Part shown: in pieces, positions 5,530 to 16,349 of the stretch | Numbering within the stretch: position 1 is the stretch's first letter | How the letters are laid out: each line of letters opens with the position of its first letter | Assembly (NCBI RefSeq): GCF_002571385.2 | Contig: NW_019217802.1 | Coordinates: forward strand, 171,066-235,065 | DNA: 64,000 nucleotides | Origin: Stylophora pistillata | Lineage: Eukaryota | Direction: 5' to 3' | The notes under the pieces: generated by a model | What the model was told of the DNA's origin: nothing | The model's input: the letters and a program-made list of their open reading frames with translations, nothing else | Databases searched by the model: none | Program-made: the position numbers and the translations under genes

Positions 5530-8455
5530 TTAGCCCAACAAACAACACCGTGATTTGCTTTTCCTTCCGTTATCGTCTTGCTCCATCGTCCCTCCTTTTT
5601 CCTTTTTATCGTTCAGCAAAATGACTCCCGGATCGAGGGCCTCGTGACGAGGGGTAAGGTAGCGTTCGGCGATTGGGGACTTCTCCTGGCTGGCATCCCT
5701 GCCAGAAAGGGTCTCTCGTAAAGAAACCATAAGATCGCTAGTCATAGCTACACCTTCGTTTTTGTCTTCGCATTCAATCATTAAGTCCGTGAGGACAGAG
5801 AATATTTCATCGATGTTCTTTCCAGATTTGGCACTAGCCTCTGTGTAAAACACACTCTCTCTTTTGGCAAATTGCTCCACTCTTTGCGAATCAACCTTTT
5901 TCTCCAACTCGTCATTTTTGTTTCCAACTAATAGGATGGGAATTCCTTCAAAGCACCTCTCCCTGACGACTTTCACCCAATTCGGCACTTCCGAGAAAGA
6001 TAATTCAGAGAGGAGGTCGAAGGCTATAACCGCGCCCCGAGCGCGGCGAAAAATCTGAGGCGCTAAGCTGGAGGCTTTGGTTGACCTGTGACCGCCTACA
6101 TCGACGATGTGAAGATGGACTGACTTATCAGTATCACGGAGACGCAGTCGCACAAAGTGATCTTCAGACTCGACGTTTCTTGTAAATGATATCTCAGAAA
6201 GCTGTTTGTTTGCATTCAGGAATCGGGCCACGATAGAGGTCTTGCCTACACTTGACTCGCCAAGTACGACAAGCTTAAACTTGTGATCGTAATGATTATG
6301 GGACATACCAGCATCCCTATCGTCAAACGGGCTACCTGATAATGTTCCACTCGCAGCTTTGCTGAGTTTATCTTTAATCTCACCTGCACTGGGTCTTTTC
6401 TCGGGAGAGTTTTCCAAGCACTGCAAAACAAGGTTGCGTAGAGGGTGGCTCGGACCCAGCTCTTCCAGGTCCTCGTGACGGCGTATGTACTCTGGGACTA
6501 TTTTCCCGTCTGGAATTAAGGTTTTAAAAAAGAAAGCTGTTAAACTGAGCACTGAAGATGCCGGGGAAGAAGACACTTATCGCTGTAGATCCAAGTAAAG
6601 AACCTATCTACATTCGTGCAGCAGCATATCCCAGCACGATAAAAGAGGCAATAGCCTCAATGTGGCACGGAAATTTCAGGATTGACTTGTGAATAATGTC
6701 AGCTTATTATCTAATAAATTTTTTTTTTTGATCACAATATCTAATATACCTAAGTTAAAACTGAGGAATACAAAAACAAAGCTTCCAGTTGAAGCAGAAG
6801 TATGCACGGATATTTGTCTGCGAATGTTTGAACTGCTTAGAGAAGAGAGCAATTTCGAGAGCCAATTACAAGCTCGAGCAAAAAGGTGAGCATTAATTAT
6901 CCTTATGCCGAATTAAACAAGTCACGCAACTGTTACGTAGCTGATAGCGTGACTTACAATAGATACAGAAAGTGTACAAGTCAGAAACAAACTAAATGAC
7001 CCGAGAGTATCGCGAAATTCGAAGGTTAAATGTAAGTTCATTTTTTAACCGACATAGTCTACGGCGTCTTAGTTTCTTAAACTTCGATAAACTACCTAAC
7101 ATCTCCTATAAGCGACAATGTTTTAAAAACTTTGTATCGTGATTTAACCATCGATCCATAACCTCTTTAAACAGGCACAATTACCGTACTTTCACGACGC
7201 CGAATGTCTCGCTAGCTTAACATTCCTGATGGTTTTATGTTTACAGACTTTGTTACACGACTTAAAATCACACGCAGAACTGTAGTGCGACATGGTAACT
7301 CGATTTGAATGGCGTGGCAGAAGATGCCAGTGTTCGCATCTGGCTAAGTGCTTTTCATTTTCAAGGCTGAAACAAAAGAAAATCAGCTAGAATTGCTTGG
7401 TTGTTACATCGCATCATACATTAGGATGAAAGGTTTCTGCGATCATGAAATGAATAATGATTCAATATGTTTTGGAGGAGACATCGTTCTGTTTCGGATT
7501 CGACAGCCTCGTCAAATAAATGACCGCAAGTTCCCCTTCAATGCCGACTCGCTTCAGGCACCTGGCTATAAGTGAGTTAAATGAAAATTGCGTTGAAGTT
7601 TGCCAAATAGCGCGAAAAAAAAGTAGAAAAGCAACTGCTTTTATGAAAGTCCATCATTCATTCGCTAAGCGACTCAGACTAACTTGATCAATCGCTCATG
7701 AAAACAATGCTATCGAAATTTTAAGAGAAAAATAGGACACAGTTACCTTCAAGAACCGGATCAGGCAAATTATCCACAGGTAGATGACCAATACAGATCT
7801 CCAGCAGCATGGCTCCAAATGAGAATATGTCGATTTTTACGGTGTATCTTGCTTCATGACCCCTCGGTAGTCCTCCTTGCCCCATTGGATACGTCTCGGG
7901 AGCGGCATACACGGGTGTTCCCGGCATGGCGGTCGCGTACATTGCAGCTCGAGGAAACACTTTTGCTTGACCCAAATCTGCAATCTTTGCACGCAAGGAT
8001 TTCGTCAACAATACATTTTTGCTCGCCAAGTCACGATGTACAATCGGTTCTTTTAGAGAATGAATGTAATGTAAACCTTCTGCGACGTCCAGCATGATTT
8101 TGATTAAGTCTGAGAAAGGCACCTTTGGTTTAGATTCCCGAATGTGCTTGGCCAAATCGCACTCTAGCAACTCTGTGACAATGATGGGACTCTCTGGAGG
8201 AGGTGGTAAAATAACAGTGTAATACCGCACAATATTCTCATGCTGAATGCTGCAGAGAATTTTCCATTCCCTCTCAAACTTGTCTAACACAGCTTTCGTT
8301 TGAATGTCATCGTAGTCCTCCATAACGAGGATTGGTAGAATCCGTTTAGCAGCAACTTGCTTGCCTTTCCACACGGCCTTCCGCACTTCGCCATACGAAC
8401 CTTCTCCGATTTTTTCGCCGAATTCTATTTCCTCAATCGAAGATGTATTTTCCAT
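5530..8455 (-). CDS. Kinase-Rab fusion copy 2 (exons 8455-7747 and 6509-5530; 562 aa)
   Basis: Kinase: GEGSYGEV, VAAK, HRDLASKN, DLG, GTPVYAAPE, DIFSFG. Phase-1 GT-AG intron. Exon 2 carries CLENSPEKRPSA, then GESSVGKTS, DVGGH, GNKND, EASAKSG and C-terminal RCCLLG. Confidence 0.9.
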
Positions 8456-13748: not shown

Positions 13749-16349
13749 TCAGTTCAACAAACAACACCCTGACTTTTTCTTGTCACTCTTGTCTTGCTCT
13801 GTTGATGATGTCGTCCCTTTTTTTTCCTTTTCTTCGTTCAGTACAATGACTCCCGGACCGAGGGCCTCACAAGGAGGTGTAAGGAAGCGTTCAGCTATTG
13901 GGGACTTCTCCTGGCTAGCATCCCTGTTAGAAAAGGTTTCTTTAAAGGAAGCCACAAGATCGCTTGTCGTAGCTTCGCCTTCCTTTTGGCTTTCGCATTG
14001 AATCATTAAGTCCACGAGAACAGAGAATATTTCATCGATGTTCTTTCCAGACTTGGCACTCGACTCTATGTAAAATAGCTTCTCTCTATCAACGAATTCC
14101 TCCACTTGACGCGAATCAACCCATCTCTCCAACTCGTCATCTTTGTTTCCAACTAGTACTATGGGAATTTCTTCCCCGCACGTGTCCCTGACGACTTCCA
14201 CCCAATTCGGCACTTCCAAGAAAGACATCTCAGAGAGGAGGTCGAAGACTATGACTGCGCCCCGAGCGCGGCGAAAAATCTGAGGCACTAAGCTGGAGGC
14301 TTTTGTGAACTTGTGACCGCCTACATCGACGATGTGAAGATGGACTGACTTATCACGGAAACGCAGACGTTCAAAGTGATCTTCAGACTGGAGCGTGCTG
14401 GGGAGTACTAACTCAGAGAGCTGGCTGTCGGTTTTTAGGAATCGGGTCACAATAGATGTCTTACCCACACCAGACTCGCCAAGTACGACAAGCTTGAACT
14501 TGTGGTCATAATGAACATGTGACATAGCACCAACTTTATCCCCAGAGGGACTACACACAGATTTGCTGAATTTCAGAAGTTCTTCTTCAATCTCCCTAGC
14601 ACTGGGCCTTTTTTCGGGAATGTTTTCCAAGCACTTCAAAACGAGGTTGTGGAGAGGATGGTCTGGACCCATTTCTTCCAGGTCTTCACTACGGCGTATG
14701 TACTCTGGGACTATTTCCCCGTCTGGAATTAAATAAGAAGCCTGTTAAACTCGGTAGTAAAGGTTGAAGCAAAAAGATGACAAGTTTTTTCATCGCACGA
14801 GCAGCAATCAAGTAAAATTTGAAAACGTTCCAAAACAAAGTGACCTTAAATGCACAAACAGTTCCTGCGAATGTTTGTTTACCGAGAATATAAGCTACTT
14901 TGCAACAGTTCAGGCGTCTTATCAGGGTGAGTTAACGTGCTAACTCTGTGATCGTTTACTCGACCAGCCATGTTTGATTTAGAGTTTAAGTGGACGGTGA
15001 GGGAGCGGAGCGAGGAAAGGTGACGAATTTCTAATGCCTCCTTCACTCCTCTGTCCTTCCTTTTGACCTTTGCTCACCCATTTGATACAAATTTCTTACT
15101 CATCTCAAAATCAACGATTGGCATAATTTTCACCGAAAAATCCTGAGAAATTTTTTCGACAAAATCACGCCTGCTATGCAGGCTACCGAAAAAAGTAGCC
15201 TGCATTTCTTTTATGAATGGCTCTTTTTAAACATCAATTGCAACAGACGTTTCTGCGCTTTTCGCAGTAATTTATGAATTAACTTCTCTTATTTATCTTA
15301 ACCTGCTAATTTTGGAAAAAGGTTAATACGAAATCTCATATTGCACTCGAACATCTATTTTTGTATTGTTTATTGACCAAACCTTATAGAATGAAAATCA
15401 ATTTTCAAAGTCGAAATAAAAGTAAGTCACGCAACTCTTATTTACCTGTGGCGTTATGATATATTACGTGACGCTCGATGGAATGTCAGGTTTAAAAAGC
15501 ATATCAAATATAACACATCCCAACCAGCAGATGTTTTCACATACGAAAATCTCATATAAAAACATTGTATTAAGTCTAAATATATGGGTAAACATGCACA
15601 GTGTTATTTCAAGAGCAAAATAGGAAGTATTTACCTTCAAGAATCGGGTCAGGCAAGTCATTTACTGGCAGATGACCAATAATGATCTCCAGCAGCATGG
15701 CTCCGAACGAAAATATGTCGATTTTTTCGGTGTATCTCGCTTTATCGCCCCACGGTAATCCTCCTAACCTCTTTGGATACGTCTCCGGAGCGGCATACAC
15801 GGGTGTTCCCGGCATGGCAGTCGCATACATTGCACCACGAGGAAACGCTTTCGCTTGACCCAAATCTGCAATCTTTGCATGCAATTTTTTCGTCAACAAT
15901 ACATTTTTGCTCGCCAAGTCGCGATGTACAAGCGGCTCTTTAAGGGTATGAATGTAATGTAAACCTTCTGCGACGTCCAGCATGATTTTGATAACGTCTG
16001 AGAAAGGAACCTTTGGTTTAGTCGTCGAGTCCCGAATGTGTTTGGCCAAATCGTTCTCTAACAGCTCTGTCACAATGATGGGGCTCTCTGGAGACGGAGG
16101 GATAATGGCGGTGTAGTACTGCACAATATTTTTGTGCTCAATGCTGCGGAGTATCTCCCATTCCTTCTTAAACTTTTCCAAGAAAGCAGCTCTAATACTA
16201 CCATCATAATCTCCTTCGAAGAAGACAGGTCGAATCCGTTTCGCAGCTACTCGCCTCCCGTTCCACACGGCTTTGAACACTTCACCATACGAACCTTCAC
16301 CAATTTTGTCTCCGAGTTTTATTTCCTCAGATGATGATTGGTTTCCCAT
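13749..16349 (-). CDS. Kinase-Rab fusion copy 3 (exons 16349-15635 and 14722-13749; 562 aa)
   Basis: Starts MGNQSSS. Same kinase motifs as copy 2 and the same phase-1 intron. Exon 2 carries CLENIPEKRPSA, GESGVGKTS, DVGGH, GNKDD, ESSAKSG and C-terminal KKKSGCCLLN. Confidence 0.9.

What the first reader, a model, noticed from the sequence alone, without database searches (positions are those of the whole stretch)
5530..16349. Lipid anchors at both ends, with the myristoyl site lost in one paralog
Seen: copies 1 and 3 begin MGNTSSK and MGNQSSS (MGxxxS myristoylation consensus), while copy 2 has MENTSSI. All end in a polybasic stretch plus CC (KKKSCCS, RKSKSRCCLLG, KKKSGCCLLN), typical Rab geranylgeranylation signals. 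Inference: anchors at both termini could clamp the protein onto one membrane or bridge two membranes such as phagosome or symbiosome. The G2E change would alter the topology of copy 2.
Basis: partly seen in the sequence, partly recalled or inferred. Interest (0 to 1): 0.7.

Follow-up and report, generated by a model that had tools for sequence, protein, structure and literature searches.

The report
Coral kinase–Rab fusions, lipid-tagged both ends
These neighbouring coral genes each join a protein kinase to a Rab-like GTPase, with conserved signals predicted to add a lipid at both ends that likely hold the protein on one membrane, and one expressed copy has lost the front-end signal.

Summary
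Observation confirmed. The window (Stylophora pistillata) holds three two-exon genes, each a TKL-type kinase fused to a Rab-like GTPase; the genome search found nine. Relatives occur in other corals and in sea anemones. In the two clades that hold the window copies, 72 of 79 standard-length leaders keep Gly2 and 75 keep Ser6; 86 of 105 family C-termini carry two cysteines. Glu2 of copy 2 is real: four runs from four studies show it, the gene is spliced, and Pocillopora-type paralogs share it. Corrections: (1) the tails of copies 2 and 3 are CCaaX and their Rab-family motifs are eroded (6-7 of 27), so direct CaaX prenylation is as likely as Rab geranylgeranylation; (2) bridging two membranes is unlikely, since the myristoyl end has no second anchoring signal and anemones without algae keep the design; (3) copy 1 has an in-frame stop. 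Best reading: double anchoring on one membrane, as shown for DIRAS3; Glu2 removes the weaker anchor. No lipid was tested. Ten paper searches and two look-ups in this scan's notes found no description of the family.

The parts
15635..16349 (-). Copy 3 exon 1: leader MGNQSSS and most of the TKL-type kinase domain
   Evidence: NCBI model PFX32710.1
13749..14722 (-). Copy 3 exon 2: end of kinase C-lobe, Rab-like GTPase domain, predicted disordered tail, CCLLN stop
16329..16349 (-). Copy 3 predicted N-myristoylation motif (Gly2, Ser6)
   Evidence: sequence; conservation
13749..13781 (-). Copy 3 basic stretch and CCaaX motif
   Evidence: sequence
7747..8455 (-). Copy 2 exon 1: leader MENTSSI and kinase domain
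   Evidence: NCBI model PFX32711.1
8450..8452 (-). Copy 2 codon 2, GAA (Glu) where relatives have Gly
   Evidence: no other letter in 4 of 4 runs whose contigs cover it
5530..6509 (-). Copy 2 exon 2: kinase end, Rab-like domain with Asn at the switch-I Thr position, tail, CCLLG stop
5530..5565 (-). Copy 2 basic stretch and CCaaX motif
   Evidence: sequence
3227..3914 (-). Copy 1 exon 1: leader MGNTSSK and kinase domain, interrupted by an in-frame stop
3516..3518 (-). In-frame TAG in copy 1, just before the catalytic loop
   Evidence: NCBI model PFX32731.1 starts downstream of it
1485..2470 (-). Copy 1 exon 2: kinase end, Rab-like domain, tail, KKKSCCS stop

Best explanation
The three genes belong to a coral and sea-anemone family that fuses a kinase to a Rab-like GTPase, and the intact copies are predicted to be myristoylated at Gly2 and prenylated at the C-terminal cysteines, with both lipids likely inserting into the same membrane. 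Shown: gene structure, splicing of copy 2, domain order, conservation of both motifs, Glu2 in copy 2. Inferred: the basic stretch plus CCaaX (prenyl on the second Cys; palmitoyl or a second prenyl on the first) is the main anchor and picks the membrane; myristate, only eight residues before the first kinase strand, pins and orients the kinase N-lobe at the bilayer; the GTPase domain, with intact nucleotide-binding motifs but no catalytic Gln and a remodelled effector face, acts as a slow nucleotide switch for the kinase or its partners rather than as a trafficking Rab. Copy 2 cannot be myristoylated, would stay on the membrane by its tail alone, and has also lost the switch-I Thr, so it is a diverged, probably differently regulated paralog. 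Copy 1 is probably decaying; an intact twin lies just outside the window.
For: Leader: 79 of 89 rows of clades A, A-like and B have exactly 16 residues before the glycine-rich loop; of these Gly2 72, Asn3 76, Ser6 75, while positions 4 and 7 vary (1.6 and 2.6 bits). Tail: 86 of 105 representatives end in a two-Cys motif; 49 of 56 CCxxx tails have two aliphatic residues after the cysteines; net basic charge before them averages +2.3 to +3.0. No second signal at the N-terminus, and myristate alone is insufficient for stable anchoring (10.1101/2023.09.01.555924, passage). Precedent: DIRAS3 is myristoylated by mass spectrometry, CaaX-prenylated, modelled on one bilayer, and G2A cuts its function by about 80% (PMC10616557). 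Kinase motifs intact across the family. Model: kinase from residue 10, GTPase 312-483, tail 518-562 under pLDDT 50. Copy 2 v copy 3 dN/dS 0.39, kinase part 0.29.
Against: No lipid, location or activity was measured, and no myristoylation or prenylation predictor was on hand. Rows are related sequences, several from one cluster, so counts are not independent events. The myristoyl motif is not family-wide (3 of 57 in the other clades; clade C has Gly2 in 3 of 5 but Ser6 in none) and was lost more than once inside clades A and B (one further loss, P0212, was among the rows dropped). An aliphatic-x-aliphatic patch like the Rab CIM is kept in the tail, which keeps the REP/GGTase-II route open; such patches also arise by chance. 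DIRAS3 has a basic amphipathic N-terminal helix that these proteins lack, so the precedent is imperfect. 11 of 105 representatives have no cysteine in the last five residues.
Confidence: 0.6

Rival explanations
1. The myristate works as an intramolecular switch: it sits in a pocket of the kinase or at the kinase-GTPase interface and is exposed or buried with nucleotide state, as recalled for c-Abl, PKA and Arf. Glu2 in copy 2 would uncouple this control.
For: Fixed 16-residue leader, conserved Asn3/Ser5/Ser6, acidic residues 8-9 that would not favour an anionic bilayer. Copy 2 lost both Gly2 and the switch-I Thr; the three other copy-2-type Rab exons also have Asn there. pTM 0.73 for the full-length model is higher than I would expect of two free domains (my inference, no PAE seen).
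Against: No pocket was identified; the clade-B model has pTM 0.62; residues 1-5 are under pLDDT 50. Pocillopora-type copy-2 genes exist with Gly2 as well, so the two losses are not strictly coupled. Not exclusive of the best explanation.
Confidence: 0.2
2. The protein bridges two membranes, tail in one and myristate in the other, for example at the phagosome or symbiosome.
For: A predicted disordered tail of about 45 residues could reach roughly 15 nm when extended (my estimate at 0.35 nm per residue). Both ends are conserved together in clades A and B.
Against: No cysteine and a net negative charge in the leader; myristate alone is a weak anchor. Both motifs are present in Actinia tenebrosa (P0122) and the leader in Actinostola (P0121); that both lack algal symbionts is recalled. 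No evidence here ties the genes to phagosomes.
Confidence: 0.1
3. The tail is handled exactly like a normal Rab (REP, GGTase-II, double geranylgeranyl, GDI cycling) and the protein is a trafficking Rab carrying a kinase; myristate only limits GDI extraction.
For: CCXXX and XXCCX are listed Rab motifs (PMC5902227, PMC3504004); CIM-like patch 22-24 residues before the cysteines in copies 2 and 3; best solved relatives are Rab5/Rab21 for copy 3 and Rab1/2/11 for a less derived member. Clade C keeps 16-17 of 27 RabF residues and ends CxC.
Against: RabF identity 7, 6 and 10 of 27 in copies 3, 2, 1, against 21 and 19 for the genome's Rab1-like and Rab8-like genes and 10 for a Rap-like gene; the most distant accepted worm Rab scores 48%. 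REP binds through RabF1-F4. An insertion in switch II makes RabF3 alignment uncertain.
Confidence: 0.1

Closest known systems
DIRAS3 (PMC10616557; passages and one results section read)
   Same: Ras-superfamily G domain with N-terminal myristoyl-Gly (peptide begins GNAS) and C-terminal CaaX; double anchoring on one membrane
   Different: No kinase domain; Ras family; its N-terminal extension is a basic amphipathic helix that binds phosphoinositides, absent here
ROCO proteins (LRRK2, Dictyostelium Roco4; anemone Roc-COR genes in PMC5094078, passages)
   Same: TKL-type kinase and small-GTPase domain in one chain; Roco4 kinase domains are among fold matches
   Different: Here the kinase comes first, there is no COR domain or repeat region, the chain is about 560 aa and ends in a lipidation motif
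Rab GTPases (Rab1/5/11 groups)
   Same: G1, G3, G4, G5 motifs, variable tail with CIM-like patch, basic stretch and two cysteines
   Different: RabF motifs eroded, catalytic Gln replaced by His or Glu, fused behind a kinase, intronless GTPase exon
Rheb variants with N-terminal lipid anchors (PMC5869587, passages)
   Same: GTPases that gained N-myristoylation, paralogs that lost it after duplication, one predicted case with both N-myristoyl and C-terminal lipids
   Different: Protist Rheb, no kinase fusion
TKL kinases CTR1 and TNNI3K (best sequence matches among solved structures)
   Same: Kinase fold and catalytic motifs
   Different: Distant matches (fold matches 21-28% identical); catalytic loop HRDLA[SCT]KN with a Ser/Thr-type GTxxYxAPE segment; substrate class untested

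Membership tests
N-myristoylated protein | Gly directly after the initiator Met, Ser/Thr at position 6 | tested here: met
   Copies 1 and 3 yes, copy 2 no; 72 and 75 of 79 leaders
N-myristoylated protein | The Met is the true start | tested here: met
   Upstream in-frame stops; RNA contig past the stop for copy 2; full-length homologs start there; a minor spliced 5' exon in copy 2 is not excluded
N-myristoylated protein | Myristate attached in vivo | not testable with these tools
   needs labelling or mass spectrometry
Rab GTPase | G1, G3, G4, G5 nucleotide-binding motifs | tested here: met
   Pfam Ras E 1e-30 to 2e-39
Rab GTPase | RabF1-F5 motifs at about half identity or more | tested here: not met
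   7, 6, 10 of 27 for copies 3, 2, 1 (consensus recalled); benchmark 48%
Rab GTPase | Switch-I Thr and switch-II catalytic Gln | tested here: not met
   Gln replaced in all three; Thr kept in copies 1 and 3, Asn in copy 2
Rab GTPase | C-terminal two-Cys motif with a CIM 9 or more residues upstream | tested here: met
   the CIM pattern is short and has no chance control
CaaX protein | Cys at -4 followed by two aliphatic residues | tested here: met
   Copies 2 and 3; 49 of 56 CCxxx tails. Copy 1 (CCS) does not fit
ROCO | Roc followed by COR, kinase downstream | tested here: not met
   No COR hit; kinase precedes the GTPase; tail predicted disordered
Active TKL-type kinase | Glycine-rich loop, VAAK Lys, HRD..N, DxG, APE | tested here: met
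   Copies 2 and 3, family counts; copy 1 is cut by a stop before HRD
Two-membrane tether | An independently stable anchor at each end | tested here: not met
   No Cys in the first 12 residues and net negative charge in the leader; judged from sequence only

The most novel reading that the evidence does not exclude
An undescribed anthozoan family of single-chain, GTP-gated kinases whose two lipid ends span a membrane contact such as phagosome to neighbouring organelle, with paralogs switching the tether on or off by one base at codon 2.
Probability: 0.1. Interest if true: 0.8.

Novelty: new variant of a known kind. Interest (0 to 1): 0.52.

Why it matters
Kinase-GTPase fusions are known to me mainly as ROCO proteins, and myristoyl plus prenyl on one chain is rare (the DIRAS3 paper calls it unique among prenylated single-domain RAS proteins). 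This family combines both in about 560 residues, has at least nine members in one coral genome and subfamilies with different anchor sets (myristoyl+CCaaX, myristoyl+CCx, CxC, cysteine tail only). It is a natural series for asking what a second lipid anchor does for a kinase and how a Rab loses its escort-protein surface. NCBI names these proteins inconsistently (drkA, TNNI3K, ypt2, PBL1, TMK4), so coral expression studies would not see them as one family. No link to symbiosis is shown.

Tried and rejected
Kinase domain and GTPase domain folded as two chains: no verdict (score 0.00, alignments not used). Fold search of the full model gave only kinase-domain matches among the rows listed. ESM Atlas gave only generic kinase clusters. 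The state of the copy-1 stop in other animals could not be read: the difference table was cut (140 rows not shown) and both lay calls were used. Raw RNA depth was too low for joints or starts. Sequencing error as the source of Glu2: rejected. A single clade of Glu2 sequences: rejected by AU test, p 0.001, probably because of mosaic paralogs; the direction Gly-to-Glu versus Glu-to-Gly inside the copy-2 clade is unresolved. Exact look-up of the two window kinase-exon ORFs found nothing. Paper searches found no description of a coral kinase-Rab fusion family; the library lacks most subscription papers and no supplements were read, so genome-paper tables could list these genes. This scan's notes: nothing by sequence, four unrelated notes by words.
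Full report
WHAT IS THERE. The window is G000:C19:171066-235065. NCBI records of Stylophora pistillata on a scaffold of the same length, 1,380,704 bases, match copies 3, 2 and 1 (PFX32710.1, PFX32711.1, PFX32731.1). Each gene has two exons on the minus strand: exon 1 carries the leader and most of a kinase domain, exon 2 the end of the kinase, a Ras-superfamily domain and a tail. Copies 2 and 3 give 562 aa and are 73% identical; copy 1 is 45% identical to copy 3. A genome search with the kinase exon gave nine matches at E 1e-52 or better and then a gap to 1e-20 (counts are lower bounds); each of the nine lies next to a GTPase exon found: five on C19, two on C413, two on C326. 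Two have a stop in the kinase exon: copy 1 and one on C326.

FAMILY. Homolog searches returned full-length fusions named from Acropora, Montipora, Porites, Pocillopora, Oculina, Actinia and Actinostola, and many unnamed single-exon ORFs. A kinase tree of 151 rows (160 given; 5 partial, 3 without a pattern match and 1 mis-parsed row dropped) separates clade A (copies 2, 3), clade B (copy 1 and its intact twin, the twin placed by the GTPase tree) and three more clades. Gly2: clade A 41 of 52, A-like 9 of 9 (one a truncated start), B 27 of 28, C 3 of 5, rest 3 of 57. Among 79 leaders of 16 residues, Gly2 72, Glu2 7, Asn3 76, Ser6 75; none has Cys in the first 12 residues and mean net charge is -0.9. 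Of 105 C-termini: CCxxx 56, CCx 21, CCxx 3, CxC 5, CC 1, other Cys 8, none 11. Background among 172 unrelated hits: MGxxxS 3, terminal CC 0.

COPY 2. It falls in a fully supported clade of 20 rows with sequences close to P. damicornis XP_027037269.1; 14 have Glu2 and 6 have Gly2 with Ile4 (leader left out of the tree). The Glu2 rows are not one clade (AU p 0.001), and both leaders occur in front of the same 3' sequence, which suggests gene conversion. So Glu2 is either older than the split of the two genera, with Gly regained in some copies, or arose more than once; it is a one-base change. Copy 2 is under purifying selection against copy 3 (dS 0.44, dN 0.17, Nei-Gojobori, both lineages pooled), and no indel appeared in exon 1 in four runs. 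Copy 2 and the three related Rab exons have Asn at the switch-I Thr position. Other losses of Gly2 occur in clades A and B.

COPY 1. The TAG falls just before the catalytic loop. Against its intact twin (C19:164840-161814) dN/dS is 0.75 and its kinase branch is long, consistent with decay. Whether the stop is fixed was not determined.

THE TAIL. CCXXX and XXCCX are accepted Rab motifs, but GGTase-II needs REP, which binds RabF1-F4 and the CIM (PMC5902227, PMC3504004; passages). RabF identity is 7, 6 and 10 of 27 for copies 3, 2 and 1, against 21 for the genome's Rab1-like gene (consensus recalled; three rows skipped). Most clade-A rows score 4-8 and carry two aliphatic residues after the cysteines (49 of 56 CCxxx tails), a CaaX box that FTase or GGTase-I can read directly (PMC12057185, passages). 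I infer a shift to CaaX prenylation with acylation of the neighbouring Cys in clade A; a CIM-like patch remains, so the Rab route is not excluded. Clade B (CCx) fits only the Rab-type pattern or palmitoylation.

STRUCTURE. AlphaFold2 with 148 rows: mean pLDDT 79.8, pTM 0.73; first kinase strand at residue 10, GTPase 312-483, tail 518-562 unstructured. A clade-B member: pLDDT 83.6, pTM 0.62. Closest solved sequences are CTR1, TNNI3K and Rab5/Rab21; none of the 60 listed covers both domains.

MECHANISM. Shown: architecture, motifs, conservation, splicing, Glu2. From established knowledge: myristate needs a second signal for stable anchoring (10.1101/2023.09.01.555924, one passage). Inferred: the second signal is the lipidated basic tail on the same membrane, as with DIRAS3, where both anchors are needed and G2A removes about 80% of function (PMC10616557). 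The myristate would hold the kinase N-lobe near the bilayer; the GTPase, lacking the catalytic Gln, would switch slowly. Rivals: an intramolecular myristoyl switch (0.2), a two-membrane tether (0.1), an ordinary REP/GDI-cycling Rab with a kinase (0.1). Gain and paralog-specific loss of N-myristoylation in small GTPases has precedent in Rheb (PMC5869587, passages), so G2E is a known kind of tinkering.

NOVELTY. Not a ROCO (no COR, reverse order) and not a Rab by RabF motifs; it works like a doubly anchored GTPase carrying its own kinase. The anemone study of new immune architectures describes Roc-COR genes, not this one (PMC5094078, passages). Ten searches found no description. Verdict: real, conserved, apparently undescribed family; the dual-anchor reading is good, the bridging and symbiosome reading is weak. 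Interest 0.52.

Noticed in passing
window 29779-42098 (+): Exons with SAM/PNT, Schlafen AlbA_2, STAND NTPase (weak) and two cold-shock domains; the combination recalls SAMD9-like antiviral proteins (label recalled).
   Followed up: no
G000:C19:155119-164840, upstream of the window: Two more cluster members: an intact twin of copy 1 (557 aa, MGNTSSK...CCS) and an opposite-strand member starting MGNSLK and ending CSC with better-kept Rab motifs, 16 of 27.
   Followed up: partly
G000:C19:167002-167187 (L010): Orphan fragment of a copy-2-type exon 2 with a stop, running almost directly into a CCLLN end; looks like a deleted duplicate.
   Followed up: no
P0376 (unnamed record): Single-ORF 465-aa kinase plus Ras-like domain starting MGAASS with no C-terminal tail or cysteine; very long branch, possibly an independent fusion anchored by myristate alone.
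   Followed up: partly
window 4860-5290: Degenerate tandem repeat of about 23 bases between copies 1 and 2, covered by RNA reads in the same orientation as the genes; possibly within a long 3' UTR.
   Followed up: no
L011-L016, L018, L019: Several stand-alone Rab-, Rap- and Ras-like genes of this genome have the whole G domain in one open frame, as does the fused GTPase exon; a retrocopy origin of the fusion is possible but untested.
   Followed up: no
window 55820-62948 (-): Exons of a large gene; the one exon scanned had no Pfam hit; it resembles UNC-79 by recall only.
   Followed up: no
window 8663-9200: High-copy repeat just upstream of copy 2 (contig depth in the thousands), with RNA reads mostly in the opposite orientation.
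   Followed up: no
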